From: a virus
Lineage: Duplodnaviria > Heunggongvirae > Uroviricota > Caudoviricetes
DNA length: 13,753 bases
Direction: 5' to 3' (one strand)
IMG/VR virus record: IMGVR_UViG_3300029181_000068
Location: 1 to 13,753 of that record
Under the pieces are notes generated by a model, which saw only the letters and a program-made list of their open reading frames with translations, did no database searches and was not told where the DNA came from. Positions 1 through 13,722 of the stretch are shown here, in pieces; within the stretch, counting starts at the first letter, position 1, and every line of letters begins with the position of its first letter. A program made the translations under genes and the position numbers.

Positions 1-1928
1 TTACTGACAATGCCGAGCTTCTCCAGCAACCAGGAAACGCCGGATTTCAGGGAGTCCAGCGGATGCATGACCATATTCAGCCCTTCCGCCAGTGCCTCCC
101 CGAATCGCCGCCCCATTGCCGCTGCGCTCTGCAGTTCGGCAGAGGTCGACTTAACGGGCGTCAGCAGATCAGTAAACCAGCCCCACAGCGCCTGCACTTT
201 GTCGCCAATCCACTGGAACACGGGCTTAAGCGGTTCGAACGCTGCACTGATGGGACCTGCCGCCGCTTTGAATCCTTCCACCACGCCACCGAGAAATGCG
301 GTGATGGGTTGCCAGTATTTCCAGACAACCAGCGCCACGCCCGCCAGAGCAGTAACCACAAGACCTATCGGACTGAGCAGAGCACCTAACAGACCAGATA
401 TGGCATACAGGGCAACGCGCAGCATCGCCAGTGGACCAGATGCCAGTACTCGCAGCACCGTGCCTGCGGCGGTCAGTCCACCGCGCAGTACCGCCAGAGG
501 ATTCATAAACATCACAGCAACAGCACGTAAACCGGATAATCCAGACCGCAAAAGTGCAACCGGCGCACCTGCTACAGTTTTCAGGACATTTCCCGTCAGT
601 GATGCCGTGCGGCGCAAAGACGACAACGGCGCAGTAAGTAAACCTGCGGCGTTGCCCGATGAAGCAAGCCCGCGTCGCAGCAGTGCCAGTGGTGCGCCAG
701 CCAGCCAGGACAACGCGCTGCTGGTTCGAGTTACTGCTGCCGTAACGGAAGATAACGTTTTGATACCCAACACAGAGAATCCCAGACGGATCACTGCCAG
801 CGGCCCCAGCACTGCAGCCAGCGCCACCGCTAAGGTGCCGAGGCCGACGGTAACCGCAGCCACAACAGCCGATGCTTTCATCAGTGTGCCTGTCAGTTCC
901 GGGTTAGCTTCCACCCAGCGACGCAACGCCCCCGTGACGCTTTTCACCGTGTACAGAATATCCATCAGCGGCTGGCGCAGCGTTTCGCCCAGGCTGCTGA
1001 AGGTGTTCTGCGCTCCGGTTTTGACCAGCAACCACTGCGCAGAAAGTGAATCCTTGTTAATGTCGGATTCTTTCTGCATGGAGCCAAGCGCATCATTGCC
1101 CGCTGTCAGTTTTAACTGACGCTGCAGTTCTGGCAGGTTGTTTGCCAGTTTCGCCGCGTCATCGCCAAACTCTTTACCAAACAACATAGTCATGGCAGAC
1201 AGGCGCTTGTCCTGCGGCAGCGCGTTTACCTTCTCCAGCACGCGCTGGATGGTTCCCATCGCATCCTTCGTCATCTGCTTTTCAATCACTTCAGGATTGA
1301 GTTTCAGCAGATTCATCCCTTCAAAGAAACTCTTGCTTTGCATGGTGGCAATGGACAATTCACGCACCATCGCGTTTGCTGCACTGGCTGCAACCTCTGG
1401 CGCAGCGCCCAGTGTCAGGAAGGTGGAACCCAGCGCCGCCGCTTTACGATAATCCAGACGGTCAGCCACACCGCCCAGACGTTGCATCACATCAATGATG
1501 TCTGCCCCTTTCGACATGGCGTTATCATCCAGATAGTTCAGCGCATCACCGAGCTGTTCAATATTGCGGGTGGGGATTTTGTAGAGCTGGGCGATTTTCC
1601 CCAGACTTTCTGACAGTTCATCCGCTGGCAGCTCAAAGGCTGTTGCCGCCTTTGCTGCCGTACTGGCGAAGGCCAGCAGGTCACGTTTCTGATCTTCCCA
1701 GCTGTCGTCAGGGTTTGCGACGTTCATGCGCGCACCACCTTCAACCAGTGCAGCGAAGTCCACCGCACCGTTTTCCATCGGCAACTGTTCGCTGGCAGCC
1801 TTGATGGCATCCTGCATTTCATAAAAACGTGCAGTGCGGTTGCCATTATCGTCACGCAGACCATTGACCTGCTTTGCCACACCTTTCATGGCATCTTCCA
1901 TGCTGGTATAGCTTTTTACTGCCGCCAT
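1..1928 (-). CDS. Phage tail tape measure protein-like (P2 gpT-type), partial: 3' end lies beyond the window start; 5' region probably missing and fused to truncated gene I
   Basis: Minus-strand frame is open from the stop at 2058-2060 down to position 3 and continues off the window, so it is absent from the ORF track. Hand-translated at both ends: ATG at 1928-1926 gives MAAVKSYTSMEDAMKGVAKQVNG; the left edge reads ...AAMGRRFGEALAEGLNMVMHPLDSLKSGVSWLLEKLGIVS. A quicker, unverified read of the middle suggests an Ala/Gly/Leu-rich product with long hydrophobic stretches, as in tape measure proteins. The + strand ORF 10..1119 is its Ser/Thr/Pro/Arg-rich antisense shadow. Family assignment is from memory, not a search. 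Confidence 0.55.
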   Translation of the reverse strand, partial: MAAVKSYTSMEDAMKGVAKQVNGLRDDNGNRTARFYEMQDAIKAASEQLPMENGAVDFAALVEGGARMNVANPDDSWEDQKRDLLAFASTAAKAATAFELPADELSESLGKIAQLYKIPTRNIEQLGDALNYLDDNAMSKGADIIDVMQRLGGVADRLDYRKAAALGSTFLTLGAAPEVAASAANAMVRELSIATMQSKSFFEGMNLLKLNPEVIEKQMTKDAMGTIQRVLEKVNALPQDKRLSAMTMLFGKEFGDDAAKLANNLPELQRQLKLTAGNDALGSMQKESDINKDSLSAQWLLVKTGAQNTFSSLGETLRQPLMDILYTVKSVTGALRRWVEANPELTGTLMKASAVVAAVTVGLGTLAVALAAVLGPLAVIRLGFSVLGIKTLSSVTAAVTRTSSALSWLAGAPLALLRRGLASSGNAAGLLTAPLSSLRRTASLTGNVLKTVAGAPVALLRSGLSGLRAVAVMFMNPLAVLRGGLTAAGTVLRVLASGPLAMLRVALYAISGLLGALLSPIGLVVTALAGVALVVWKYWQPITAFLGGVVEGFKAAAGPISAAFEPLKPVFQWIGDKVQALWGWFTDLLTPVKSTSAELQSAAAMGRRFGEALAEGLNMVMHPLDSLKSGVSWLLEKLGIVS

Positions 1929-2356
1929 CACTGGCGCACCCATTGCCAGCCCTGCAGCCGTGGTGGTGGCTCCGGCACCTGCAATACGATCACGCACCTC
2001 CAGCGAACGGGCATATCCAGGCGAAACGTGCCCGGTGTTTCTCCGGTCTGCCACCACTCAATAATGCGGATCAGGAATCCGAACGGCTCCACCACCCGCC
2101 GCACGGCACTGGTGGTCCCTTTATGCTGATGAATATAAAAAGCATCCTTCACCACCTGGCGCTTGACGCTTTCTGTCCAGCCCTCGTCCCAGCGATCCAC
2201 AGAGAACGCCCAGGCGAGATAAGGCAGGAAACTGACCGGACAGGTTGCCGGATTCCACAAATCACGAAGCGGCACCTGCAGATCAGAAATCCCGCTGCAG
2301 GTTTGCGCCAGTCGGCGCTCCAGTGGTGTTGAACCCGGTGGCAGCAGACTATTCAT
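1928..2356 (-). CDS. I: Phage tail protein I (P2 gpI-like), apparently C-terminally truncated or frame-disrupted after about residue 114
   Basis: ORF of 142 aa. N-terminal ~114 aa (MNSLLPPGSTPLERRLAQ...LWNPATCP...LAWAFSVDRWDE...GTFRLD) resembles P2 gpI as I recall it (~176 aa). The last 28 aa (MPVRWRCVIVLQVPEPPPRLQGWQWVRQ) are Trp/Pro/Arg-rich and look like out-of-frame translation. Stop TGA at 1928-1930 overlaps the ATG at 1928-1926 of the downstream tape-measure frame. Confidence 0.75.
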   Translation of the reverse strand: MNSLLPPGSTPLERRLAQTCSGISDLQVPLRDLWNPATCPVSFLPYLAWAFSVDRWDEGWTESVKRQVVKDAFYIHQHKGTTSAVRRVVEPFGFLIRIIEWWQTGETPGTFRLDMPVRWRCVIVLQVPEPPPRLQGWQWVRQ

Positions 2357-2945
2357 CCGTTCCTCCGTTGGTTACGCTCCACTGCGTACATGATGCCGCC
2401 TGTGTTTTGTTCAGGACCACATCCGCCAGAGGAGAAGCCAGCTCCACACGCTGCACCCCCTCAACATGCAGGGCGGCAAAGATGGCGCTACGGCGAATAT
2501 CCCGACCAAGACGCGTCTGACTGGCGATGTACTTCTGCAGGCTGGCTTTTGCCGCTGCCATTACCGGCTCTGCTTCCGGTCCAGGATAGAGAAAAATGGT
2601 GGCTTCCACGCGATACGGGATGATTTCTGCGCTGCGAACCGTAAGACGGTCAGCCACCGGGCGGACGTTCTCACTGTTCAGAGCTTTTTCCACCACGTCC
2701 AGCAGGTCTTTTTCTGCAGTTCCATCGCCTTCGCGGCTAAGGACAGTCAGCACCACCTCTGCAGGTGCCGGGCTGGTTGCACTGGCATCCGCCACCCGAC
2801 CGTCGGCGCTTCGGGCATGAAATTCATAAGCTGCAGTTGGCCCCGCAACAGAAAGCCCTTCAAAGGCTGCAGGTACACGCAGGCGCAACGCTTCATCGCT
2901 TTCCATCACAGCTGCAACGGGCGGCAGCCTCCAGTACAAACTCAC
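2349..2945 (-). pseudogene. J: Baseplate assembly protein J (P2 gpJ-like), C-terminal ~2/3 only; N-terminal third missing
   Basis: 198-aa ORF whose track start is a GTG. The sequence PPVAAVMESDEALRLR...FEGLSVAG...HARSADGRVAD...RPVADR...LYPGPE...RLGRDIRRSAIFAALHVEGVQRVELASPLADVVL...TDE matches the C-terminal part of P2 gpJ (~302 aa) from memory. No native N-terminus or RBS. Overlaps the 3' end of the V fragment in another frame. Confidence 0.8.
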
Positions 2946-3357
2946 TGGTTTTCATGATGATGTTGTCAGCAGCCTCAATGACCATTGATTTGATGCCCCT
3001 GACATACCAGCGCCCGGTGGCGGGTTCGTATTCAAACCAGCCACCGTCAGGATGTTCTGTCACGCAGGCATCCGCCGACGTCGACGGTGGTGCGAACTGA
3101 TTCGAATAGACAGCGGGCAGCGCAAAGGCGGTTTCCAGATTGCCGCCCAGACTCAGCAGCACCACCTGCTCACCTTCCGATGGTCGCCACCATGTACGGG
3201 CATTCCCGGCACGCAGCGTCAGCCAGCTGATCCAGTTGGTTTCAAGCTCGCCCGTTTTCACCCGGCAAAGCCAGTTTTCCCTGTCCACTTCGGTGACTAC
3301 CCCTGTGCGGATCAGGTTGGTGATAAGGCGCATGATTTCGGTTAATTGTGCGTTCAT
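2893..3357 (-). CDS. V: Baseplate assembly/spike protein V (P2 gpV-like), N-terminal fragment ending in a premature stop
   Basis: 154-aa ORF with ATG at 3357-3355. N-terminus MNAQLTEIMRLITNLIRTGVVTEVD...RVKTG...WISWLTLRAGNARTWWRPSEGEQVVLLSLGGNLETAFALPAVYS has the gpV OB-fold pattern. Shorter than P2 gpV (~211 aa); its reading frame stops at 2893 inside the region where the J frame opens. Confidence 0.75.
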   Translation of the reverse strand: MNAQLTEIMRLITNLIRTGVVTEVDRENWLCRVKTGELETNWISWLTLRAGNARTWWRPSEGEQVVLLSLGGNLETAFALPAVYSNQFAPPSTSADACVTEHPDGGWFEYEPATGRWYVRGIKSMVIEAADNIIMKTSEFVLEAAARCSCDGKR

Positions 3358-3372
3358 AGGGAAAGGTTGCCA

Positions 3373-3930
3373 TCAGGGGAAGAAAGCCGGATTGCTTTCA
3401 CTCAGGACAGCGCCAATCGCTTTATGCAGACGCGCCCGTGACTGGTCCGGCATATCCAGACCGTCTGTCAGCTCCAGCGTCTGCAGCAACAGATCGGCAT
3501 CAAAGCCGGTGGCGGCAAGCATTGCGCTCTGCGCCGCGTCTGCCATTTCCTCTGCCAGCACGGTCTGCACATTGCGATTACCCAGCGGCATCACCCAGCC
3601 ATGACGCAGGGCGTGACGCCCGATCTCCAGCGCCCCGGCATAATCTCCGGCATCAATGCGCCACAGCATCACGTACATCAGCACGTCATCCTGTTGAGCG
3701 CCTCCGGCAGCCAGGACACCCTCCGCCCAGGCGGCGTACTTCGGCAGCAGCTCCACCTTGATTTCCGCTTTTTTGACCGTGGACTGAACGCCCTTGAGAC
3801 GGCGGCGGTCTTCCGCCAGTTGCAGCAGCATCAGGTCATAGCCCGACGCGTGGCGAACGCTGCCGCCCTCGCGGGCGGCCTGTTCAGCCTGAACGCGCAG
3901 GCGATGCTGCCGTGCGGGACTCAGGCTCAT
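3373..3930 (-). CDS. M: Terminase small (endonuclease) subunit, P2 gpM-like; possibly 3'-truncated
   Basis: 185-aa ORF, ATG at 3930-3928, 3 nt after the N stop (TAA 3936-3934). Resembles P2 gpM (QDDVLMYVMLWRIDAGDYAGALEIGRHALRHG, LELTDGLDMPDQSRARLHK). Shorter than the ~247 aa I recall for P2 gpM. Stop at 3373-3375 is only 15 bp from the V start. Confidence 0.8.
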   Translation of the reverse strand: MSLSPARQHRLRVQAEQAAREGGSVRHASGYDLMLLQLAEDRRRLKGVQSTVKKAEIKVELLPKYAAWAEGVLAAGGAQQDDVLMYVMLWRIDAGDYAGALEIGRHALRHGWVMPLGNRNVQTVLAEEMADAAQSAMLAATGFDADLLLQTLELTDGLDMPDQSRARLHKAIGAVLSESNPAFFP

Positions 3931-3933
3931 GAA

Positions 3934-4992
3934 TTACGCTCCGGTTTCTGCTGCTGCGGCGCTGAAGTCGCCAATCTGGATGTTTTCCACCAGTGCGGCG
4001 CAGCGGTAGTCCTCAACCACATAGGCTTCGTTAACGGATTCAAAGTTTTCAATCCGGTCACGTTTCGGGTTGTCGATAACTGAGCGGCGACGGGTGTCTT
4101 CCTGCCAGTAGATGGACAGGTTATCCAGACGGGTGATCAGCAGTGCATTCGGCGGGAAGAACGGCGCACGCACGGCCTGCAGGCCACCCATGCGTTTCTG
4201 ACTGATGATCATATCGGCAGCCAGTTTTTCACTGTTTTCCTGCTCTTTGTTGACCAGCGGGAAATACTTGTCAGACAGCAGTTCACGACCGCAAATCACC
4301 ACCAGATCGTCATCGTCCTGGTAGACCACATCGATAAGCTCATTGACGGCATCCATCACCACGGCGTCCAGGTTGGCATATTCGCCACCTTTCCCGACTT
4401 TCACCGCACCCGGTGTGGTTTCACCGCCCGTGGTGGTGCTGCCCATGACGTGATCCGGTGCATCTTCACGGATTTTCTGCAGCCAGCCTTTGTTCACATC
4501 CTGCAGCAGCGGGTTTTCGCTACGGTTGGAGGTTTTCGCACGCTTCACGCCGTTAAAGCCGATCATGATGCGGTCCAGAGCCTGACGTTTCACGATGGCG
4601 TCACGGATGCGCACCTGGAAATCCTGAAACTTCGCCCACAGGTCCAGCTTCGCGTAGGTCAGCACCGTGTCAAAGTTGGTCTGCTCGCATTTATATTCCA
4701 CATCGACCATCAGCGTCGGATCGACAGGTTCACGCTCTTTCGCGGTGGTGTCAGTGGTTCCGGCAATGGTGCTGCCAACTCCCAGCCCCAGCAGCTGACC
4801 GGACTGCTCAGTCACTGGCGTGACGTTAATCAGCGTCAGGAAAGCGGCGGACTGCTGGATCTGGTCTTCCAGCGTCTGCTGCACAGACGGCTCCACGGTG
4901 AACTTGCTGGACAGTTCTTCAACTGCCACACCGTTCAGACGCGCCAGCTGCTGCAGGTAAGCGTTAAAAGCAAAGCGGGTATTCTTCTTCAT
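3934..4992 (-). CDS. N: Major capsid protein, P2 gpN family
   Basis: 352-aa ORF. Near-collinear resemblance to P2 gpN as recalled (FNAYL...LNG, KFTVEPSV, IGFNGVKRA, NPLLQDVNKGWLQK, KVGKGG.YA.LDAVVMDA, DKYFPLVNKEQENSEKLAADMIISQKRMG, ENFES...YVVEDY). GGAG upstream of ATG 4992-4990. Confidence 0.95.
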   Translation of the reverse strand: MKKNTRFAFNAYLQQLARLNGVAVEELSSKFTVEPSVQQTLEDQIQQSAAFLTLINVTPVTEQSGQLLGLGVGSTIAGTTDTTAKEREPVDPTLMVDVEYKCEQTNFDTVLTYAKLDLWAKFQDFQVRIRDAIVKRQALDRIMIGFNGVKRAKTSNRSENPLLQDVNKGWLQKIREDAPDHVMGSTTTGGETTPGAVKVGKGGEYANLDAVVMDAVNELIDVVYQDDDDLVVICGRELLSDKYFPLVNKEQENSEKLAADMIISQKRMGGLQAVRAPFFPPNALLITRLDNLSIYWQEDTRRRSVIDNPKRDRIENFESVNEAYVVEDYRCAALVENIQIGDFSAAAAETGA

Positions 4993-5008
4993 CGGGTTTT
5001 GTGCTCCA

Positions 5009-5842
5009 TCAGCAATTGGTCAGAGTGTCAGCGGGGGCGTTACCGCCTGTTGCACGCTGGCGGTAGTCCTGGCGACTGTCTTCATGACTCAGCTTGTCCA
5101 CCAGTTCGTTAAAGGCGGTTTGCTGTGCCTGCAGGGCAGTCTCCAGCTCAGACAGGCGTTCTTCCTGCTCAGACAGGGATTTTTCGGTGCGTGCGCTCAG
5201 GTTCTGCTGCTCAGTGGCGACCAGCTCCACGGCCTTATGCACATCAGAGAACCGGGCGTCATCGGACTGCTCTTTTTTGGTAAACAGCGCCGTGACGCGG
5301 GCAAACAGGGACGGTTTGTCGTCCTGGATTTCTTCCAGTTCGATCACCGTTTCCTCTGCAGCGGTAAAGAGATTGGCAGGATTCTGCTTGCGGTTTGCCA
5401 GCGGGTTATGGGCTGCACTGGCGCTGAATGTCAGCATTTCCGTACCCAGACTGGCAGGGTCATCAGTGGCAGCCAGGCCGACCAGATAGGCTTTGCCCGT
5501 ATCAGCGAACTTCGGGCTGACTTCCATAGAGGTGAATAATTTCTGGCCTTTTTTCACCAGTTCCACCAGGGACTCCGTTGGCTCAACGTCGGCATACAGC
5601 GCCATCTTGCCTGCCAGCGGACCTTCCGTGATTTCTTCAGCAAACAGCGCCGTCACCTTGCCGTAGCGGTTAAAGGTGCTGTCCGGCAGATAAGACTTGA
5701 TGTGCTCAAGGTTAATCAGCGCGGTATACACCGCCGGGTTGTAGCTGGCTGCCATCTGTTCCAGCCATTCACGCTGGATTTCGCGTCCGTCGGTGGTGGC
5801 ACCTTCCACCCCGATGCGAAAACGCTTTGCTTTCACTGTCAT
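5009..5842 (-). CDS. O: Capsid scaffolding protein, P2 gpO family
   Basis: 277-aa ORF. Resembles P2 gpO (FRIGVEGATTDGREI, INLEHIKSYLPD, TSMEVSPKFADTGKAYLVGLAATDDPASLGTEML, ASDDARFSDVHKAV, C-terminal ATGG...TNC). GGAG 8 nt upstream of ATG 5842-5840. First gene of the leftward head operon. Confidence 0.95.
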   Translation of the reverse strand: MTVKAKRFRIGVEGATTDGREIQREWLEQMAASYNPAVYTALINLEHIKSYLPDSTFNRYGKVTALFAEEITEGPLAGKMALYADVEPTESLVELVKKGQKLFTSMEVSPKFADTGKAYLVGLAATDDPASLGTEMLTFSASAAHNPLANRKQNPANLFTAAEETVIELEEIQDDKPSLFARVTALFTKKEQSDDARFSDVHKAVELVATEQQNLSARTEKSLSEQEERLSELETALQAQQTAFNELVDKLSHEDSRQDYRQRATGGNAPADTLTNC

Positions 5843-5920
5843 GAGCCGTGCTCCGTTAGAAAAAACTTACTGGAGCCTTATGGTTGCGGTGATGGGGGCA
5901 GTGAAACAATGCGCGGTATT

Positions 5921-5938
5921 TGTACCGACAACCACACA
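5921..5938. promoter_or_regulatory. TGT-N12-ACA dyad (Ogr/Delta-type late activator box) in the divergent O/P late promoter region (5843-5984)
   Basis: Exact TGTaccgacaaccacACA in the 142-bp gap between divergent O (minus) and P (plus). P2-family late promoters carry TGT-N12-ACA centred near -55. The spacing fits the leftward O promoter best (dyad centre ~5929; plausible -10 CATAAG on the minus strand near 5876-5881; O ATG at 5842). Confidence 0.45.
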
Positions 5939-5984
5939 AACCGCAGGCGGGGAAAGCCTTCATTCAAGGCTGTAGGTTTGTGCC

Positions 5985-7751
5985 ATGAACACCACACTGA
6001 CACCCGCAGATCTCGATCCCCGTCGGCAGGCCATGCTGCTGTACTTTCAGGGATACCGCGTAGCCCGCATTGCTGAAATGCTGGGCGAGAAAGTTGCAAC
6101 CGTTCACAGCTGGAAAAAACGCGACAAGTGGGGTGACTATGGGCCGCTGGATCAGATGCAGCTCACCACCGCCGCACGCTACTGCCAGCTCATTATGAAG
6201 GAGCACAAAGAAGGGAAAGATTTCAAAGAGATTGACCTGCTGGCGCGCCAGTCGGAGCGCCATGCGCGGATCGGCAAGTTTAACAATGGCGGCAACGAAG
6301 CCGACTTAAACCCTAACGTCGCCAACCGCAACAAAGGCCCGCGCCGTCAGCCGGAAAAGAACGTTTTCACCGATGAACAGATTGAGAAGCTGGAAGAAAT
6401 CTTTTATTCCTCCATGTTCAACTACCAGCGCCACTGGTGGGAAGCCGGAAAAACCAACCGCATCCGCAACCTGCTGAAGTCACGCCAGATCGGCGCGACC
6501 TTTTACTTTGCCCGTGAAGCCCTGATTGACGCCCTGCTTACCGGACGTAACCAGATTTTCCTTTCTGCCAGTAAGGCACAGGCGCACGTCTTTAAGCAGT
6601 ACATCATCGACTTTGCCAAAGAAGTTGAGGTGGAGCTGAAAGGCGATCCTATGGTGCTACCTAATGGCGCAGCATTGTACTTTCTCGGCACCAACGCCCG
6701 TACGGCGCAGAGCTACCACGGCAACCTGTACCTTGATGAATATTTCTGGATACCGAAATTCCAGGAACTGCGCAAAGTTGCCTCCGGGATGGCCATTCAC
6801 AAGAAATGGCGACAAACCTACTTTTCCACGCCGTCCAGCCTGACCCACAGTGCCTATCCGTTCTGGTCCGGTGCGCTGTTTAACCGGGGCCGCGCCAAAG
6901 CGGACAAGGTGGATATTGACCTGACCCACAGCAATCTTGCGCGCGGCCTGCTCTGCCCTGACGGACAGTACCGCCAGATAGTCACTGTGGAAGATGCGGT
7001 GCGCGGCGGCTGTAACCTGTTCGACCTCGACCAGTTGCGCATGGAGTACAGCCCGGACGAATACCAGAACCTGTTGATGTGCGAGTTTGTGGACGATCTC
7101 GCGTCCGTGTTTCCGCTCAGCGAGCTGCAGGCGTGCATGGTGGACAGTTGGGAAGTCTGGACCGACTTTCATGCACTGGCCCTGCGCCCGTTTGGCTGGC
7201 GCGAAGTCTGGATCGGATACGACCCGGCGAAAGGCACGCAAAACGGCGACAGCGCCGGATGCGTGGTGGTGGCACCGCCAGCCGTGCCGGGTGGTAAGTT
7301 CCGCATTCTTGAGCGTCACCAGTGGCGCGGGATGGACTTCCGCGCCCAGGCTGACGCCATCAAAAAACTGACCGAACAGTACAACGTGACCTATATCGGT
7401 ATCGACTCAACCGGCGTTGGTCACGGGGTTTACGAGAACGTGAAAGCGTTTTTTCCTGCCGTCCGGGAGTTTGTCTACAACCCCAACGTTAAAAACGCCC
7501 TGGTACTCAAGGCCTACGACATTATTAGCCACCGCCGCCTGGAGTTTGACGCAGGGCACACCGACATAGCGCAGTCCTTTATGGCAATCCGTCGCGCCAC
7601 CACTGCCAGCGGCAACCGCCCGACCTATGAAGCCAGCCGCAGCGAAGAAGCCAGCCACGCCGATCTGGCCTGGGCAACAATGCACGCACTGTTTAATGAA
7701 CCGCTGCAGGGCGAGTCCGCCAATACCAGCAATATTGTGGAGATTTTTTGA
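5985..7751 (+). CDS. P: Terminase large (ATPase) subunit, P2 gpP family
   Basis: 588-aa ORF; P2 gpP is ~590 aa. Resembles the P2 terminase ATPase subunit (MLLYFQGYRVARIAEMLGEK, KSRQIGATFYF Walker A-like, NLYLDEYFWIP, IGYDPA...GDSAG). Stop TGA at 7749-7751 overlaps the Q ATG. Confidence 0.95.
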   Translation: MNTTLTPADLDPRRQAMLLYFQGYRVARIAEMLGEKVATVHSWKKRDKWGDYGPLDQMQLTTAARYCQLIMKEHKEGKDFKEIDLLARQSERHARIGKFNNGGNEADLNPNVANRNKGPRRQPEKNVFTDEQIEKLEEIFYSSMFNYQRHWWEAGKTNRIRNLLKSRQIGATFYFAREALIDALLTGRNQIFLSASKAQAHVFKQYIIDFAKEVEVELKGDPMVLPNGAALYFLGTNARTAQSYHGNLYLDEYFWIPKFQELRKVASGMAIHKKWRQTYFSTPSSLTHSAYPFWSGALFNRGRAKADKVDIDLTHSNLARGLLCPDGQYRQIVTVEDAVRGGCNLFDLDQLRMEYSPDEYQNLLMCEFVDDLASVFPLSELQACMVDSWEVWTDFHALALRPFGWREVWIGYDPAKGTQNGDSAGCVVVAPPAVPGGKFRILERHQWRGMDFRAQADAIKKLTEQYNVTYIGIDSTGVGHGVYENVKAFFPAVREFVYNPNVKNALVLKAYDIISHRRLEFDAGHTDIAQSFMAIRRATTASGNRPTYEASRSEEASHADLAWATMHALFNEPLQGESANTSNIVEIF

Positions 7752-8776
7752 TGGGAAAGAGTAAGAAAAACCGCGCTGCGGCGACGAATCAGCTCAAGCA
7801 TAAAAGCCAAACTTCAGCCGAAGCATTCAGCTTTGGCGATCCCGTTCCTGTTCTGGACCGCCGTGAACTGCTGGACTATGTGGAATGCGTACAGATGGAT
7901 CGCTGGTATGAGCCGCCCGTCAGCTTTGACGGACTGGCACGAACCTTCCGCGCCGCCGTGCATCACAGCTCACCAATTGCGGTGAAATGCAACATTCTGA
8001 CCAGTACCTACATCCCTCACCCGCTGCTCAGCCAGCAGGCTTTTTCACGTTTTGTGCAGGACTATCTGGTATTTGGTAACGCCTACCTGGAGAAACGCAC
8101 GAACCGCTTCGGTGAAGTTATCGCCCTTGAGCCTGCTCTGGCAAAATACACCCGACGCGGGTTAGACCTGGATACCTACTGGTTTGTGCAATACGGTATG
8201 ACAACCCAGCCGTATCAGTTCACGAAAGGCAGCATTTTTCATCTGATGGAACCTGACATCAACCAGGAGATCTACGGCCTACCAGGTTATCTTTCTGCCA
8301 TTCCGTCAGCCCTGCTCAACGAGTCCGCCACGCTGTTCCGCCGGAAGTATTACATTAACGGCAGCCATGCAGGCTTCATCATGTACATGACCGATGCCGC
8401 GCAGAACCAGGAGGATGTGAACAACCTCCGCAATGCGATGAAAAGCGCCAAAGGCCCTGGCAACTTCCGCAACCTGTTTATGTACTCGCCTAACGGCAAA
8501 AAGGACGGGCTTCAGATCATCCCGTTGTCAGAAGTCGCGGCGAAGGATGAATTTCTGAACATCAAGAACGTCAGCCGTGATGACATGATGGCGGCACACC
8601 GCGTACCGCCTCAGATGATGGGAATTTTGCCGAATAATGTTGGGGGTTTTGGTGATGTGGAGAAGGCGAGCTGCGTCTTCGTAAGAAATGAACTATTACC
8701 ACTTCAAAAAAGATTCATGGAAATAAACAGATGGCTTGGTCATGAAATTATAAATTTTGAAATATATACATTATAA
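7751..8776 (+). CDS. Q: Portal (capsid portal vertex) protein, P2 gpQ family; last ~30 codons AT-rich
   Basis: The ORF track starts at TTG 7748; the likely start is ATG 7751 (MGKSKKNR...), overlapping the P stop as TGATG. 341 aa; P2 gpQ is ~344 aa. Portal-like throughout (GNAYLEKR, YWFVQYG, GLPGYLSAIPSALLNE, YYINGSHAGFIMYMTD, MMGILPNNVGGFGDVEKA). Codon usage turns AT-rich from ~8680 (AGA, CTA, TTA, ATA codons). Confidence 0.95.
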   Translation: MGKSKKNRAAATNQLKHKSQTSAEAFSFGDPVPVLDRRELLDYVECVQMDRWYEPPVSFDGLARTFRAAVHHSSPIAVKCNILTSTYIPHPLLSQQAFSRFVQDYLVFGNAYLEKRTNRFGEVIALEPALAKYTRRGLDLDTYWFVQYGMTTQPYQFTKGSIFHLMEPDINQEIYGLPGYLSAIPSALLNESATLFRRKYYINGSHAGFIMYMTDAAQNQEDVNNLRNAMKSAKGPGNFRNLFMYSPNGKKDGLQIIPLSEVAAKDEFLNIKNVSRDDMMAAHRVPPQMMGILPNNVGGFGDVEKASCVFVRNELLPLQKRFMEINRWLGHEIINFEIYTL

Positions 8777-8781
8777 AACCC

Positions 8782-8804
8782 AACGGCATCACAATGATGC
8801 CGTT
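8782..8804. terminator. Hairpin between convergent Q and the PIN-like gene; probable intrinsic terminator for the minus-strand gene
   Basis: AACGGCATC-acaat-GATGCCGTT: 9-bp perfect stem with a 5-nt loop. On the minus strand it is followed by GGGTTTTAT. No T-run follows it on the plus strand. Confidence 0.4.
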
Positions 8805-8813
8805 ATGAACGAA

Positions 8814-9875
8814 TTAATATTCAAAATTATTTTCTTCAATAGAGAACTCAATCCCTCGGGATAACTTATCAATATTCACATCAAATGCGATATCTGTTAA
8901 TTCACCATCCTCGATTTCATACATAACTTCAATTTCAATATCGAAACTAATCTCTTGAACTTCAGTTCGTGTGGTTGTCTCCATTGGAATCATTACTTTA
9001 TCTTCGCTATCCCAATACCCATTATTAAAGTCTGGACCAGAAACAGTAACTTCAAAATCTACAGAAACAGAGAAGGTCGCTAGACAATAATTATTGTCAA
9101 TCTTAATTATTGATGGTTCAAAGTCATCAATATTGACGACTTCAAATGAATCCAATTCAGCGTCTTCCCAAGTTGAAACGTTATATCCATCGGCATCATT
9201 GAGTTGGGCAATTACGTCCGCTCTTATGTCTTCACGTTTGCTTTCGATAAACTGCATCAATTTATTACTTAATTCGTTTGTATGCGTATTGTATTCACCT
9301 AGAAACTTATCAAGTGAATCAATTTGATGAAGATTGTTTTTACCATCACAATAATTTTTTAAGTCACTATCCTCAGAAATGATATACACATCTTCATCAT
9401 TAACAAATCGCTCTACCGCAGCTAAAGTGATTGCATCAGGAAACTCACTTTTTTTCTTATTTTGCCCAAATGGTGGTTCTTTGCCAAAGTATTTATCTAA
9501 AACCTCATTAAGATCTATCACTTCTATTGTAGCTAATTTGGCGTGACATCCTTTCAAAAAATCATCAAAAACTTTTTGTGCTGCTTCGTGAATTTCATGT
9601 TCGTTAAATTGCTGAAAAAAACCATGGAGCGGTCCATTATCAATACTATTCAAAAGCCTAGCTTTTCTTTGTACTGTGTTTATAGCCTGCAGAGCATCCT
9701 TTATTGATTCCTCTATTTTACCTTTTACTTCTCTCTCTACAACTGTAGTTGTAATTAAGACTAAATCACCTTTCGCACATAATTCATGGAAAGCTTTAAA
9801 TGCTACCCCCTCAAAATGAAGACCAGCCTTTACGTACGTTTGTGTGTCAATAAATACCTTATTTGTTTTAAGCAT
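8814..9875 (-). CDS. PIN-like nuclease-domain protein with an acidic C-terminal domain; candidate stand-alone defence or abortive-infection gene
   Basis: 353-aa ORF in AT-rich DNA. ATG 9875-9873 with AGGA 5 nt upstream. N-terminal ~170 aa carry PIN-like acidic motifs (KVFIDTQ; LVLITTTVVEREV; EFPDAITLAAVERFV; VYIISEDSDL). C-terminal ~150 aa are very Asp/Glu-rich with alternating hydrophobics (FDIEIEVMYEIEDGELTDIAFDVNID). Domain call is by motif pattern only. Confidence 0.7.
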   Translation of the reverse strand: MLKTNKVFIDTQTYVKAGLHFEGVAFKAFHELCAKGDLVLITTTVVEREVKGKIEESIKDALQAINTVQRKARLLNSIDNGPLHGFFQQFNEHEIHEAAQKVFDDFLKGCHAKLATIEVIDLNEVLDKYFGKEPPFGQNKKKSEFPDAITLAAVERFVNDEDVYIISEDSDLKNYCDGKNNLHQIDSLDKFLGEYNTHTNELSNKLMQFIESKREDIRADVIAQLNDADGYNVSTWEDAELDSFEVVNIDDFEPSIIKIDNNYCLATFSVSVDFEVTVSGPDFNNGYWDSEDKVMIPMETTTRTEVQEISFDIEIEVMYEIEDGELTDIAFDVNIDKLSRGIEFSIEENNFEY

Positions 9876-10001
9876 ACTAATCCTAATAAGTTTTAAGATC
9901 CGCTACAATTGTTTATGTTTATTTTTTATCAATAATCATACGTAGTTAAGATTATCCATGTCGAAAAATTAAATCAACTTCAATTTATCCTTAAGCGCGC
10001 G

Positions 10002-10020
10002 CTCGTATCCCCGCCACGCC
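10002..10020 (-). other. Candidate cos site (19-nt cohesive end, P2/186-like)
   Basis: Minus strand reads GGCGTGGCGGGGATACGAG followed by CGCGCGCTTAAGG. The P2 left end as I remember it is GGCGAGGCGGGGAAAGCAC then TGCGCGCTGACGG (about 24 of 32 matches; position 5 T as in phage 186). Orientation fits P2: cos, then Q and P transcribed toward cos. It is a GC-rich patch inside otherwise AT-rich accessory DNA. Confidence 0.5.
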
Positions 10021-10382
10021 TGCCCGCTTTATGTAGTGGTTTTCATGCACCTGCATGACATAAGCAAAAGCACGCCAGTTCTGGCTGACTTCAGCAAAAA
10101 CGATCCTCAAACGATCATGCGATCTCATGCGTCATAGTCATGCGCTGCCAAGGGAAGCGTAAATCCGTATCTGAATGACTGCTGAAAAGCGAATCATACG
10201 GGTTTACAAAGATGAAAGTTCGCTGTGAGCGAGAAGCGAACCTTGCAACTTTGTTGGCACAGTTTTAACACCAATTTTTTGAGGATAGCTAGAAAACTTG
10301 TGGCATAAAGGATCAGTTTCCCGATCGAACTTTTTATCAAGAAGGGCTCATAGCAATCGCCAGAAGAAGTGATGTTAAAGTA

Positions 10383-10411
10383 TTGAGCTCGGCGTTAAGA
10401 TTAAATAAATT
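10383..10411 (+). promoter_or_regulatory. Candidate sigma70-type promoter for the SIR2-HerA operon
   Basis: TTGAGC, 17-nt spacer, TAAATT, about 35 nt upstream of ATG 10445 (RBS AAGGA at 10435-10439). Weak match in AT-rich DNA; other candidates exist. Confidence 0.25.
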
Positions 10412-10444
10412 ACAGACTAATCCAATGTTTTGTGGAAGGATAAG

Positions 10445-11488
10445 ATGGCAGTCAAGCGCGCATACTACGGTAACGATAGTGACCGAGACTACTTAGAGCG
10501 GATATTTCAGTCAGCTAACATTAACTTTCTCATCGGATCAGGTGCATCCCTCCCAGCGATTAAAGTACTGGGGACAATCGAAACGGATCTTCAGCAGCTT
10601 ATTAATGATGAACAGGAAGATGAATACTTAAGGATGGCAGCTGACTTTTTGTCAGATGTTTGGCTACCTCATGAATGCATGTTGAAGCGCGGCTACGGCA
10701 CCCCCTTCGCACCTCAGGTGATCACCGATTTGGAATGTACCCGTGCAAATTATGATGCATTTATGTCTTCTCTGGAAAAGATACTGACCCGCCGCCGAAC
10801 TGGCCTACTTCCGAGGCGTATTAACGTTTTTACAACTAATTATGATTTATTCATCGAAGAAGCTGCCACACGTAATAACAATATTCTTTTTAATGATGGA
10901 TTCAATAGAAGAGCAAGTATTTTGGGAGATGCGGAATTTGATGCGGGTAGCTTTAATCATTCTGTAAGTGCAACCGGAAATCTGTATAATTATAAAGTTG
11001 AGCTTCCTACTGTTAACCTTATAAAACTTCATGGTTCGCTCTCTTGGCAGCATTCTAAAGGGAAAATCATTTATCGTATTGCAGATATTAAGCCGCTTGA
11101 CTTTCCCACCCTAGCCGAAATGAAAGGATGGGTACTTGCTCATGCACTTATTCTTCCACGTAAGGAGAAGTTTAAAGAGACTCTACTACAGAACGTTTAT
11201 TATGATTTACTGAGAACCTATTCCAACGAGCTTGATAAAGAAGCAACTTTACTAATTGTCTTTGGGTTCTCGTTTGCTGATGAGCACATTGAAACGATAA
11301 CTAAAAAAGCCCTGCGCAACGCCACCCTGAAGCTACTGATCTTTGCTTTCGATGAGGCCAGTGTTAACGGCTTTATGGAGAAATTTCGGGATTACTCAAA
11401 CGTAGAGATTATTTATCGGCCGGGAAGAAATGTTGATTTTCCGGTAATGAATAACATTATCACGTGCTATCTGGGAGGCTCGAGATGA
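10445..11488 (+). CDS. SIR2-like (sirtuin-fold) NAD-binding protein, defence-associated type
   Basis: ORF track starts at TTG 10430; the likely start is ATG 10445 (MAVKRAYYG...), 5 nt after AAGGA. 347 aa. Sirtuin-like motifs: Gly-rich loop FLIGSGAS (10532-10549), VFTTNYDLFIEEA (TQN-like) and IKLHGSLSW (catalytic His region). AT-rich codon usage. Stop TGA at 11486-11488 overlaps the HerA ATG. Confidence 0.9.
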   Translation: MAVKRAYYGNDSDRDYLERIFQSANINFLIGSGASLPAIKVLGTIETDLQQLINDEQEDEYLRMAADFLSDVWLPHECMLKRGYGTPFAPQVITDLECTRANYDAFMSSLEKILTRRRTGLLPRRINVFTTNYDLFIEEAATRNNNILFNDGFNRRASILGDAEFDAGSFNHSVSATGNLYNYKVELPTVNLIKLHGSLSWQHSKGKIIYRIADIKPLDFPTLAEMKGWVLAHALILPRKEKFKETLLQNVYYDLLRTYSNELDKEATLLIVFGFSFADEHIETITKKALRNATLKLLIFAFDEASVNGFMEKFRDYSNVEIIYRPGRNVDFPVMNNIITCYLGGSR

Positions 11489-13344
11489 GCAGGCATTTTA
11501 CTGAAGAGGAAGCGGTGCTCCGTATAGGCGAAGTCTGTGAGGTTTCTGGACGCGCTGTGACAATTTTGGTCGATAAAAACAAAAATCTCAGTGACTTGTT
11601 TTATCAGGGAAAAGTTCTAAGAAATGTATCAGTGGGTAGCTTCATTGAGATCAAAAAAGGTTTCATGAGCCTGATCGGCAAGGTTGAAGCGGAACGAATC
11701 ATTGAGGAAAAACATCTCGCTGGGAGCGGCAGTGATGCCTGGCGATATCGGCGATACCTGACCTCTACTCTTACGGGTTACATTGATCGTACTGGTTGCT
11801 TCATTGGTGGTTCGCGTGAACTACCTCTCATCGGCAATGAAGTCTTCGTGGTAACTGAAGAGATGATACAGACGGTTCATCAGATAGCTGATGCAGACGA
11901 AACTGTAATGAGGTTTACTCGTACAGATCTTGAAGATATTGAAATTGCACTACCAATCAATGGTCTTATTAATTCCCACATTGCCATTTTCGGTAATACA
12001 GGCAGCGGAAAGTCAAATACCCTAGCCGCGCTATACAAAGCAGGTATTGCCCAAGTTAAACATATTCTCGGCAACCACTTTAGTGAAAGATGCAAATTTA
12101 TTCTATTCGACTTTAATGGAGAATATACTGCCCCACGCTGTATTACTGACGAGAAGACGGTTTATAATCTCAACACGCACCATGCAAATGGTGACAAACT
12201 TCCTCTACCCAGAGAGGTTCTACTTGAGCATGATATGCTCTCAGTTCTAACCGATGCAACAGACAAAACACAGAAACCTTTCCTGAAGAGAGTTCTTGAG
12301 TTTCGCAAGAAAGTGATGACTGCTGATAATCCTCTTGAGTTTATGCGCAATATCCTGAAGAAAAAAGTCAGACAAAATCTCTTTAGTAGCGACAAACCCA
12401 AATGCGATACTATAAATCAGTTTCTTAGCCCAATTTTCAAAGATGACCCAGAACTTATATCTGATCTTGAGTATCATTCAACTGCATATAAATGGAAATT
12501 GAGGGGTGGTAGTATTTTCAATACAGAAGCTGATACTGAGCGCTCCTATCTATTCAGTCTTGCAAGCAATTTTTCATTTAAAACTGATATGATTGAAGAA
12601 CTGTTGGACTTTATGTACTTACAGTTAATACAGGAATATTTATCTAACAAGTCTAACCCTGAACATATTTCACCAGTTATAAATAGAATGAGTGCTAACC
12701 GTAAAGATATAGCCAAAATATTTGATACTTCCGGACAGTCTGACTTTTGGGGTGAACATAATTTCACGGTTGTGAATCTAAATATGGTTAATATAACCAT
12801 GAAAAAAACGCTTCCTCTTTTGATAGCCAAGTGGGCTTACAATATGAAGAAAATGTCTACAGAGAAATCTACACTGCACATCATTATAGATGAAGCCCAC
12901 AATATTTTGTCTAATACTTCTTTTCGGGAAACGGAAAGTTGGAGAGATTATCGTCTGGAAACTTTTGAGGAAATCATAAAGGAGGGGAGAAAATTTGGAG
13001 TTTTTATCACAATTTCCAGTCAACGCCCTAATGATATATCGTCGACAATCATATCCCAAGCACACAATTATTTTATTCATCGCCTTATTAATCAGAATGA
13101 TCTGTACGCAATTGAAAAATCAGTATCATATATAGATCGACTGACTGAAGAGTCGATTCCAACGCTATCTACAGGAACCTGTATTTTTAGTGGTATCGTC
13201 TGCCCCATGCCGCTCAAATTAAGGGTAGCTGAACTTCCAATTGAAGAAAAACCTAAGAGTAATACTATTTCCTTCAACGATTTAATACCTGAGAGGCTGG
13301 GAGAGGATGACCAGAGCGACTACGTAATAACCAGCCCTCACTAA
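11485..13344 (+). CDS. HerA-like (FtsK/HerA superfamily) ATPase, partner of the SIR2-like protein
   Basis: ORF track starts at GTG 11464 inside the SIR2 gene; the likely start is ATG 11485 (MSRHFTEEE...), with GGGAGG 6 nt upstream and an ATGA overlap with the SIR2 stop. 619 aa. Walker A FGNTGSGKSNT (11992-12015), Walker B LHIIIDEAH (12880-12900), and a downstream FITISSQRPNDIS motif. AT-rich. Confidence 0.9.
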   Translation: MSRHFTEEEAVLRIGEVCEVSGRAVTILVDKNKNLSDLFYQGKVLRNVSVGSFIEIKKGFMSLIGKVEAERIIEEKHLAGSGSDAWRYRRYLTSTLTGYIDRTGCFIGGSRELPLIGNEVFVVTEEMIQTVHQIADADETVMRFTRTDLEDIEIALPINGLINSHIAIFGNTGSGKSNTLAALYKAGIAQVKHILGNHFSERCKFILFDFNGEYTAPRCITDEKTVYNLNTHHANGDKLPLPREVLLEHDMLSVLTDATDKTQKPFLKRVLEFRKKVMTADNPLEFMRNILKKKVRQNLFSSDKPKCDTINQFLSPIFKDDPELISDLEYHSTAYKWKLRGGSIFNTEADTERSYLFSLASNFSFKTDMIEELLDFMYLQLIQEYLSNKSNPEHISPVINRMSANRKDIAKIFDTSGQSDFWGEHNFTVVNLNMVNITMKKTLPLLIAKWAYNMKKMSTEKSTLHIIIDEAHNILSNTSFRETESWRDYRLETFEEIIKEGRKFGVFITISSQRPNDISSTIISQAHNYFIHRLINQNDLYAIEKSVSYIDRLTEESIPTLSTGTCIFSGIVCPMPLKLRVAELPIEEKPKSNTISFNDLIPERLGEDDQSDYVITSPH

Positions 13345-13357
13345 TTAACAAAGTGCT

Positions 13358-13377
13358 GAAGCGGTAACGACCGCTTC
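13358..13377. terminator. Hairpin downstream of HerA; possible weak terminator
   Basis: GAAGCGGT-aacg-ACCGCTTC: 8-bp perfect stem, 14 nt after the HerA stop (TAA 13342-13344). No clean T-tract on either side. Confidence 0.3.
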
Positions 13378-13488
13378 TAGCACAAAGCGGACGATCACTT
13401 ATCAAAATGCCCGCCCACCTTACGCCTCGTTTCACTCGTTGCCCAAACTAGCCCCCATCAGAATGAATCCTCCTGGAGGCAACGTTTC

Positions 13489-13722
13489 TTAATGCAGCCA
13501 GCTGTCGTCTTCCCACACTTTCTGCATAATTTTCATCACTTGTTTTCTTTCTTCATCCAGTTGCAGTCCGGTCAGTTCCACACCGTTAGAGCTACCTTTG
13601 CGGATACGAATTACCGTTTTGGGATACAGGGGGCGCAGATTGCGGTAAAGCTCGGATTCAAGGGCGTCCAGGGTAGACTGGCTAATCTTCTGCTCTTTAT
13701 CGATCATTATTTCAATGCGCAT
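13489..13722 (-). CDS. DinI-like family protein
   Basis: Track ORF starts at ATG 13746; the likely start is ATG 13722-13720 (MRIEIMIDKEQ...), with GAGGTG 6 nt upstream. 77 aa. Resembles E. coli DinI (MRIEVTIAK..., ~81 aa) in length, N-terminus and acidic C-terminus (WEDDSW). Backbone-like GC content. Confidence 0.8.
   Translation of the reverse strand: MRIEIMIDKEQKISQSTLDALESELYRNLRPLYPKTVIRIRKGSSNGVELTGLQLDEERKQVMKIMQKVWEDDSWLH

What the first reader, a model, noticed from the sequence alone, without database searches (positions are those of the whole stretch)
3373..10020. Intact head/packaging module plus cos retained in an otherwise decayed prophage
Q, P, O, N and M are full-length or nearly so, with good starts and coupling, a late-promoter box and a candidate cos. 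Tail, lysis and head-completion genes are deleted or fragmented. Selective retention next to defence cargo suggests either recent decay or maintenance of the module. A co-resident or superinfecting P2-like phage supplying the late activator and missing functions could express it. Packaging of this element is then conceivable if cos is functional.
Basis: inference. Interest (0 to 1): 0.45.

Follow-up and report, generated by a model that had tools for sequence, protein, structure and literature searches.

The report
Recently decayed P2-like prophage remnant
This is an ordinary broken copy of a common E. coli P2-type prophage: three small-homology deletions removed its tail, lysis and head-completion genes, and the head genes look intact only because the damage is recent.

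Summary
The observation largely holds. The window is a P2/186-like (Peduoviridae, Wadgaonvirus-type) prophage piece. Three microhomology deletions (about 6.6, 0.8 and 3.4 kb) removed most tail genes, all lysis genes and the head-completion gene L.

N, O, P and Q are identical in protein sequence to those of intact prophages. The P/O promoter region and a 305-bp cos region are identical to intact relatives. The cos (10002-10020) aligns with the P2 cos.

The module is not intact. The third deletion removes the last 34 residues of the small terminase M, a segment conserved across 287 P2-like phage records, and L is gone.

"Maintenance" is not supported:
- The dead tail fragments are as pristine as the head genes (671 open codons in T').
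- No complete E. coli genome (5,426) carries these junctions.
- Sister prophages show many other deletions that remove head genes.

Recent neutral decay is the best reading.

Caveat: the window switches parental type once, inside P (7419-7525). That joint occurs nowhere else, so linkage of this head module to this cos and cargo may be a natural recombinant or an assembly chimera.

Defective P2-like prophages with conserved cos-adjacent defence hotspots are already described. Interest is low.

The parts
1..2015 (-). T' : tape-measure gene fragment, codons 178-848 of 1025, running off the left end of the window
   Evidence: 99.85% identical to phage 500465-1. 671 codons open with 1 aa difference.
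2013..2015 (.). Deletion junction 1 (about 6.63 kb lost: 5' part of T, E/E', FII, FI, invertase, fibre genes G/H, 3' part of I); 3-bp microhomology ATA
   Evidence: Also present in L003.
1928..2356 (-). I' : first 114 of 201 codons of baseplate gene I, then out-of-frame read into T'
   Evidence: Pfam Tail_P2_I on the same product in L003.
2349..2926 (-). J' : last 191 of 302 codons of baseplate gene J
   Evidence: Pfam Baseplate_J..
2918..2926 (.). Deletion junction 2 (about 0.82 kb lost: 5' part of J, W, 3' part of V); imperfect microhomology of about 6-9 bp
   Evidence: Present in L003, L004 and L005.
2893..3357 (-). V' : first 144 of 192 codons of baseplate spike gene V
   Evidence: Pfam Phage_base_V..
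3384..3390 (.). Deletion junction 3 (about 3.39 kb lost: V promoter, S, R, lysC/B/A, K, Y, X, L and the last 34 codons of M); 7-bp imperfect microhomology AAG(G/C)CGG
   Evidence: Nucleotide-identical in L002-L005.
3373..3930 (-). M' : truncated small terminase subunit, 182 native residues + FFP (intact = 216 aa)
   Evidence: Pfam PF05944 core present. Alignment A1. PHROG 74 covers positions 2-185 of 232. The lost segment is conserved in 287 phage records.
3934..4992 (-). N : major capsid protein, full length
   Evidence: PF05125 1-327/327. Identical to L009 and L016.
5009..5842 (-). O : scaffold/protease, full length
   Evidence: PF05929. Identical to L012.
5843..5984 (.). Divergent late promoter region; TGT-N12-ACA dyad at 5921-5938
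   Evidence: 0 mismatches to intact L019 and L022, and to decayed L003, across the bins that span it (5641-6140). Consensus as given in PMC3931495.
5985..7751 (+). P : large terminase subunit, full length
   Evidence: Terminase_5/6N/6C. The exact protein is in 119 blocks, including intact prophages.
7419..7525 (.). Single crossover interval between two parental prophage types (type A to the left, type B to the right)
   Evidence: 72 of 72 informative sites are type A up to 7418; 95 of 95 are type B from 7526. The joint was not found elsewhere.
7751..8776 (+). Q : portal protein, full length (341 aa from the ATG)
   Evidence: PF04860. Identical to L008, L009, L010, L014 and L016.
8781..8805 (.). 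Hairpin terminator between convergent Q and PIN_12
   Evidence: 11-bp stem.
8814..9875 (-). PIN_12-domain accessory gene between Q and cos, AT-rich (33% GC), with a sigma70-like promoter at 9964-9935
   Evidence: PF16289. No PADLOC or PHROG hit. Exact protein in 554 blocks..
10002..10020 (-). Candidate 19-nt cohesive-end sequence (cos): GGCGTGGCGGGGATACGAG
   Evidence: Aligns with the P2 cos and its right-end flank. Invariant across the family apart from one single-base gap in phage 500465-1.
10021..10143 (.). Conserved cos flank with repeated CATGC(G)/GCATG motifs (inferred terminase recognition region)
   Evidence: Alignment A2. Homology to relatives with other cargo ends at about 10143.
10445..13344 (+). 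SIR2 (10445-11488) and HerA (11485-13344) defence pair in the cos-proximal hotspot
   Evidence: Full-length PADLOC SIR2 and HerA hits, E 6e-211 and 6e-267. Pfam.
13489..13722 (-). DinI-like gene, start of the conserved early region
   Evidence: Mapped from L007 (PF06183).

Best explanation
The region is a defective remnant of a common E. coli P2/186-like temperate phage.

Three independent illegitimate-recombination deletions at 3-9 bp microhomologies removed about 10.8 kb of the late region. They took most tail genes, all lysis genes, head-completion gene L and the 3' end of small-terminase gene M.

Q, P, O and N, the P/O late promoter region and cos are unchanged because too little time has passed for further hits, not because they are kept for a function.

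Inferred behaviour:
- If a late activator (its own Ogr, if still present, or that of a helper) were made, PO/PP would be transcribed and procapsids (N, O, Q) could form.
- The element cannot make tails, lyse the cell or complete heads, and its own terminase is probably impaired.
- Its cos, being identical to that of functional relatives, could be cut by a matching helper terminase.

The selectable content of the remnant is the cos-flanking cargo: PIN_12 and SIR2-HerA.
For: Deletions:
- The window maps collinearly on phage 500465-1 at 98.9-99.9% identity, with three gaps of 6,630, 820 and 3,391 bp at short microhomologies.

Retained genes match functional relatives:
- N, O, P and Q are identical to proteins of intact prophages.
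- The cos block is 100% identical to intact L008.
- The promoter region has 0 mismatches to intact L019 and L022.

Dead fragments are equally pristine:
- T' has 671 open codons and 3 nt differences in 2 kb.
- I'/J' has 1 difference in 0.9 kb.
- The head block has 1 difference in 3.25 kb.

Rarity:
- 0 of 5,426 complete E. coli genomes carry the architecture or junction 3.
- The junction 3 sequence gave 0 hits in JGI metagenomes and GTDB representatives.
- M' is on record in 5 contigs.

Heterogeneous decay in relatives:
- L002, L007, L011, L013, L015, L018 and L020 each have different deletions, most of which remove head genes.

Literature:
- Defective P2-like elements with conserved defence genes and no consistent pattern of lost core genes (PMC13586616).
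- The hotspot between gpA and gpQ next to cos (PMC9122126).
Against: - Junction 3 is nucleotide-identical in L002, although its N-M' DNA differs from the window at 44 sites in 1.7 kb. That deletion is therefore not brand new. It has either persisted through recombination or arisen twice.
- A second remnant, L018, also keeps Q-P-O-N-M while losing tail genes. However, its O is frameshifted, and it was found by a look-up keyed on P, which is an ascertainment bias.
- The rest of the prophage (int, repressor, A, U, D, ogr) lies outside the window and was not seen.
Confidence: 0.85

Rival explanations
1. Maintained, helper-dependent element. The head/packaging genes and cos are kept because the remnant, with its defence cargo, is mobilised by a co-resident or superinfecting P2-like phage that supplies tails, lysis, L and a full M. 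This would be a nascent capsid-encoding satellite.
For: - cos and the late promoter region are identical to functional relatives.
- Q, P, O and N are intact.
- cos is flanked by defence cargo on both sides.
- Related P2-like prophages are in about a quarter of complete E. coli genomes, so helpers are common.
Against: - There is no conservation of the architecture.
- Leftover tail fragments at 99.9% identity mark recent accidental deletion, not an evolved gene set.
- M lacks a family-wide conserved C-terminus and L is missing.
- A helper brings its own head genes, so the retained ones would be redundant.
- The sister lineage L002 lost O and half of P.
- cos packagers are size-constrained (PMC6893505), and the remnant would be about two thirds of unit length (estimate).
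Confidence: 0.05
2. The physical link between this decayed head module and this Q-PIN_12-cos-SIR2/HerA segment is an assembly chimera of two P2-like prophages present in one sample. The deletions themselves are real.
For: - There is one clean switch of parental type inside a 107-bp identical stretch, 7419-7525.
- The joint is absent from 1,221 E. coli genomes that hold this P/Q region (best match 98.5%), from GTDB representatives and from JGI metagenomes.
- The identical left part in gut-metagenome contig L003 continues into a different Q (345 aa) and GAPS4 cargo. Isolates L020, L021 and L026 show that same combination.
- Contig L005 stops at 6583, one base before the first informative site. 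This indicates a second related prophage in that sample.
Against: - P2-like phages are naturally mosaic, and 107 bp of identity is ample for homologous recombination.
- The origin of the window (isolate or metagenome) is unknown.
- The conclusion does not depend on this point. L003 shows the same decayed module linked to a Q, a cargo and a cos-like block.
Confidence: 0.3
3. The intact head genes matter only as a recombination reservoir. Incoming P2-like phages can exchange or rescue alleles and cargo by homologous recombination with the remnant. This is a by-product, not a selected function.
For: - The window is itself a two-parent mosaic.
- Junction 3 sits in two different sequence backgrounds.
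- The literature raises swapping of defences between defective and functional P2-like elements (PMC13586616).
Against: No direct evidence of exchange involving this locus. The mosaic may be an assembly artefact.
Confidence: 0.3

Closest known systems
Escherichia phage 500465-1 (Peduoviridae, Wadgaonvirus) and the same-type intact E. coli prophages (e.g. L008, L019, NZ_CP027366)
   Same: - 97-99.9% nucleotide identity.
- Same gene order.
- Identical N, O, P and Q proteins in intact prophages L008-L026.
- cos block identical to L008, and the 19-nt cos and its right flank conserved in 500465-1.
   Different: The window lacks about 10.8 kb of late genes and has a truncated M. Cargo differs between members.
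Bacteriophage P2 (NC_001895) head/packaging module and cos
   Same: - Divergent Q-P | O-N-M arrangement.
- 36-63% protein identity.
- A TGT-N12-ACA dyad between P and O.
- cos and right-end flank alignable.
   Different: - The 19-nt end differs from P2 at 5 positions.
- The intergenic region is 31 bp shorter and not alignable.
- A PIN_12 gene sits between Q and cos, where P2 has about 170 bp of non-coding DNA.
- The early region of relatives is 186-like (CI, CII/CP76, Fil).
Defective P2-like prophages with conserved defence hotspots (PMC13586616; hotspot defined in PMC9122126)
   Same: An incomplete P2-like element whose cos-adjacent defence genes are near-identical to those of intact phages (99.98% to L011). 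No fixed pattern of lost core genes.
   Different: None of substance. This is one more instance.
Satellite P4 and capsid-forming PICIs
   Same: A cos site usable by a P2-type terminase lies next to defence cargo (as in P4). Head genes are present without tails (as in cf-PICIs).
   Different: - No satellite-specific genes appeared in the Pfam/PADLOC/PHROG scans of the ten longest ORFs, and the remaining sequence aligns to P2-type late-gene fragments.
- No head-tail adaptor.
- Tail-gene debris is present.
- The architecture is not conserved across genomes.

Membership tests
P2-like (Peduoviridae) head/packaging module | Divergent operons Q-P and O-N-M(-L) with portal, TerL, scaffold/protease, P2-family capsid and TerS families | tested here: met
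   Pfam PF04860, PF06056/PF03237/PF17289, PF05929, PF05125 and PF05944 in that order and orientation.
P2-like (Peduoviridae) head/packaging module | cos homologous to P2-type cohesive ends | tested here: met
   Alignment to the P2 right flank plus cos. 100% identical to intact L008. Cleavage itself was not tested.
P2-like (Peduoviridae) head/packaging module | Ogr/B-type activator site (TGT-N12-ACA) between P and O | tested here: inconclusive
   A perfect match lies at 5921-5938 and is identical to intact relatives. The motif count in the window equals chance, and the spacing to the P start differs from P2.
Functionally complete head/packaging module | Full-length small terminase gpM | tested here: not met
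   182 of 216 residues are retained, plus 3 foreign residues. The missing segment is conserved in 287 phage records.
Functionally complete head/packaging module | Head-completion/adaptor protein gpL present | tested here: not met
   L lies inside deletion 3. gpL is part of the head pathway (PMC7552001).
Functionally complete head/packaging module | Q, P, O, N free of inactivating mutations | tested here: met
   Each protein is identical to one in intact prophages.
Phage satellite (P4-like or capsid-forming PICI) | Conserved, recurrent gene set lacking helper-supplied functions by design | tested here: not met
   The architecture is absent from 5,426 complete E. coli genomes, and the junction 3 sequence is absent from the GTDB representative genomes and JGI metagenomes. 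Fragments of T, I, J and V remain.
Phage satellite (P4-like or capsid-forming PICI) | Helper-induced excision, replication and packaging | not testable with these tools
   Needs infection experiments. int, A and ogr lie outside the window.
SIR2-HerA defence system (cargo) | Adjacent SIR2 and HerA genes | tested here: met
   PADLOC SIR2 PDLC04080 (1-347/347) and HerA PDLC04097 (3-616/618). The genes overlap by 4 nt.
P2 cos-proximal defence hotspot (between gpA and gpQ) | Variable cargo between conserved Q/cos and the early region, across relatives | tested here: met
   Homology to relatives stops at about 10143 and resumes at about 13365-13479. Relatives carry KAP NTPase, Mrr, DUF6694, retron and other cargo there. 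PMC9122126.

The most novel reading that the evidence does not exclude
The remnant is an incipient capsid-encoding, helper-dependent element. Its Q-P-O-N genes and cos let it, together with its flanking PIN_12 and SIR2-HerA cargo, be packaged and spread when a matching P2-like helper supplies tails, lysis, gpL and full-length gpM. This would be a P2-derived analogue of capsid-forming PICIs caught at birth.
Probability: 0.04. Interest if true: 0.55.

Novelty: already known. Interest (0 to 1): 0.13.

Why it matters
As it stands, it matters little. It is one more defective P2-like prophage whose useful content is the defence cargo beside cos, a pattern already described.

It does give a clean, datable example of prophage decay: three short-homology deletions with no secondary damage. 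It also shows that "intact-looking" genes in a remnant are not evidence of selection.

If helper-dependent packaging were shown, it would show how a defective prophage could turn into a satellite and move defence genes.

Tried and rejected
- A search for the exact P2 cos 19-mer with up to 3 mismatches gave 0 hits. The site differs at 5 positions and was found by local alignment instead.
- Global alignment of the P/O intergenic region with P2 was uninformative.
- Attempts to find the window's own contig failed. The HerA product with its GTG start is not on record. The I' fragment is found only in L003. Exact scans for junction 3 and for the crossover joint in JGI metagenomes and GTDB representatives all gave 0. 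The flanks (int, A, U, D, ogr) could therefore not be inspected.
- PADLOC and PHROG scans for PIN_12 gave nothing.
- Rfam gave nothing in the window.
- PDB holds no relative of gpM, so the role of the lost C-terminus rests on conservation only.
- Repeat scanning of the cos region added nothing beyond the alignment.
- I considered a deliberately engineered packaging strain and rejected it. The same junctions occur in gut-metagenome and other public contigs.
- I considered a dN/dS test for selection on the head genes and rejected it. Differences to intact relatives are 0-1 per kb, and they reflect standing phage polymorphism.


Full report
**What the window is.** ORF listing and Pfam scans show, from left to right:
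- debris of tail genes on the minus strand;
- M, N and O on the minus strand (3373-5842);
- P and Q on the plus strand (5985-8776);
- an AT-rich PIN_12 gene (8814-9875, minus);
- a 555-bp non-coding stretch;
- a SIR2-HerA pair (10445-13344);
- the start of a DinI-like gene.

Megablast against phage records gives Escherichia phage 500465-1 (Peduoviridae, Wadgaonvirus) and Klebsiella/E. coli relatives at 95-98% identity, but with only two thirds of the window covered and a record span of 22 kb for 13.7 kb of window.

**The deletions.** A blastn map on the annotated phage shows three clean gaps:
- Window 1-2015 lies inside tape-measure gene T. About 6.63 kb is then missing: the 5' part of T, E/E', FII, FI, the invertase, the fibre genes and the 3' part of I.
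- Window 2013-2926 holds I' and J'. About 0.82 kb is then missing: the 5' part of J, W and the 3' part of V.
- Window 2918-3390 holds V'. About 3.39 kb is then missing: the V promoter, S, R, all lysis genes, X, L and the last 34 codons of M.

The junctions carry 3-9 bp perfect or imperfect microhomologies, the usual mark of illegitimate recombination. The fragments are 114 of 201 codons of I, the last 191 of 302 of J, 144 of 192 of V, and codons 178-848 of 1025 of T.

**State of the head/packaging genes.**
- N, O and Q are each identical in protein sequence to the product of at least one apparently intact prophage recovered from isolate genomes.
- The exact P protein is on record in 119 blocks of the collection, including prophages with a complete late region.
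- Ribosome-binding sites and coupling are as in relatives.
- M is not intact. It keeps residues 1-182 of 216, followed by FFP.
- The Pfam core (PF05944) is covered, but PHROG 74 is matched only over positions 2-185 of 232.
- The C-terminal 61 residues of intact M, which include the lost 34, are matched at 80% coverage or more in 287 phage records. These include Ralstonia, Burkholderia, Mannheimia and P2 itself.

The lost part is therefore a conserved piece of the protein. No solved structure exists to say what it does. L, the head-completion protein that acts after packaging (PMC7552001), is deleted.

**Promoter and cos.** The 142-bp P/O intergenic region holds a perfect TGT-N12-ACA at 5921-5938, the consensus given for P2 late promoters (PMC3931495).
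- The motif count in the window (3) is what base odds predict, so the motif alone proves nothing.
- The bins spanning the region have no mismatch to intact prophages L019 and L022.
- Its centre is 55.5 nt from the P start codon and 87.5 nt from the O start. This geometry is not the same as in P2, where the annotated site is 55-56 nt from both transcription starts.

The exact P2 cos was not found at up to 3 mismatches. Local alignment, however, places P2's right-end flank and the first 13 nt of its cohesive end on window 10008-10052 (minus strand). This gives a candidate 19-mer GGCGTGGCGGGGATACGAG at 10002-10020.

In a ten-sequence alignment, the window is 100% identical over 305 bp to the intact same-cargo prophage L008. 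The 19-mer is unchanged in every relative apart from a single-base gap in phage 500465-1, and about 120-130 bp on its right side is largely invariant whatever the cargo, with repeated CATGC(G)/GCATG motifs. The PIN_12 gene lies between Q and cos.

**Recent decay or maintenance?** Four lines of evidence favour recent decay.
1. The dead fragments are as clean as the head genes. T' has 671 open codons and 3 differences in 2 kb from phage 500465-1. I'/J' has 1 difference in 0.9 kb. The head block 3391-6640 has 1 difference in 3.25 kb.
2. The architecture is rare.
   - None of 5,426 complete E. coli genomes has it or has junction 3 alone, although 1,344 carry a related prophage.
   - Eleven of those carry the same cargo with a late region spanning 24-25 kb.
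   - Exact scans of JGI metagenomes and GTDB representative genomes for junction 3 found nothing.
   - The M' protein is on record in five contigs only.
3. The lineage goes on decaying. L002 shares junction 3 but has lost O, half of P and everything from V' to the end of D.
4. In a sample keyed on the neighbouring PIN_12 gene, neutral with respect to head versus tail, about half of the 24 contigs read are visibly defective.
   - There are at least five different lesions.
   - All four deletion types (L007, L011, L013, L015) remove O, N and M.
   - Look-ups keyed on P add L018 (M fused to U, O frameshifted) and L020 (O through to ogr deleted).

This matches the published picture of defective P2-like elements: no consistent pattern of lost core genes, and near-identical defence genes (PMC13586616). 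It also matches the cos-adjacent hotspot between gpA and gpQ (PMC9122126).

**Points against a very recent origin.** Junction 3 is nucleotide-identical in L002 and the window over at least ±50 nt. Yet L002's N-M' DNA differs at 44 sites in 1.7 kb. Either the deletion is old enough to have passed through recombination with other P2-like phages, or it arose twice. I cannot decide which.

**A caveat on linkage.** The window is a two-parent mosaic.
- It carries the alleles of the decayed lineage (L003/L004/L005) at all 72 informative sites up to 7418.
- It carries the alleles of the PIN_12/SIR2-HerA type (L007/L008/L011) at all 95 informative sites from 7526.
- The single switch lies in a 107-bp identical stretch inside P.
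- No complete E. coli genome (best 98.5% over 7230-7780), GTDB representative or JGI contig has this joint.
- Gut-metagenome contig L003 links the identical left part to a different Q (345 aa) and a GAPS4-type cargo. Isolates L020, L021 and L026 show that same combination.
- Contig L005 ends one base before the first informative site. That points to a second related prophage in that sample.

The joint may be a natural recombinant or an assembly chimera. The main conclusion survives either way, because L003 shows the same three deletions linked to a Q, a cargo and a cos-like block.

**How it most likely works.** Shown:
- the gene content;
- the deletions;
- the identity of N, O, P, Q, the promoter region and cos to functional relatives;
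- the truncation of M and the loss of L.

Inferred:
- With a late activator, the two operons would be transcribed and procapsids could form.
- Packaging by the element's own terminase is doubtful, heads could not be completed, and there are no tails and no lysis.
- A matching helper could cut this cos, but it would bring its own head genes. It would also need the remnant to excise and replicate.
- cos packaging is size-sensitive (PMC6893505). By my estimate, about 35 kb minus 10.8 kb, the remnant would be roughly two thirds of unit length.

**Verdict.** This is an ordinary, recently decayed P2-like prophage with a known type of cos-adjacent defence cargo. The "maintenance" reading is unsupported, and mobilisation is conceivable but untested. 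The kind of element is already known, and interest is low.

Noticed in passing
window 8814-9875 (minus), promoter-like 9964-9935, hairpin 8781-8805: A 353-aa PIN_12-domain protein is encoded between portal Q and cos, where P2 has only non-coding DNA. It has its own sigma70-like promoter and no PADLOC or PHROG match. The exact protein occurs in 554 collection blocks next to many different cargos, so it may be an uncharacterised accessory or defence gene.
   Followed up: partly
window 8777-13480; L003 1896-5090; L007-L026: In this P2-like family, cos splits the gpA-gpQ hotspot into two variable sub-loci. Q-to-cos holds PIN_12 here and a three-gene GAPS4-type operon in L003, L020 and L026. cos-to-DinI holds SIR2-HerA here, and KAP NTPase, Mrr-like, DUF6694 and others elsewhere.
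   Followed up: partly
window 10021-10143: The cos flank, largely invariant across relatives, contains repeated CATGC(G)/GCATG motifs, three of them 10-13 bp apart. Similar motifs occur at the P2 right end. They are candidate small-terminase binding sites.
   Followed up: no
window 7419-7525: A single clean crossover between two parental prophage types lies inside gene P. The joint was found in no other sequence searched, so it is either a natural recombinant or an assembly chimera.
   Followed up: yes
window 3340-3440 and L002 10491-10591: Deletion junction 3 is nucleotide-identical in L002, although the adjacent N-M' DNA differs at 44 sites in 1.7 kb. Either the deletion is old and recombination followed, or the deletion recurred.
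   Followed up: partly
L007, L010, L011, L013, L015, L018, L020: Sister prophages, most of them flanked by the ogr-adjacent ybjL/ybjM host genes, show many independent lesions. These include large deletions, a nonsense codon in N (L010) and a frameshift in O (L018). The L007-type deletion alone accounts for 9 of the 24 contigs read.
   Followed up: partly
window 10-1119 (plus): The longest ORF at the left end (369 aa, plus strand) is a spurious antisense frame of the GC-rich tape-measure fragment. The real frame is on the minus strand and runs off the window.
   Followed up: yes
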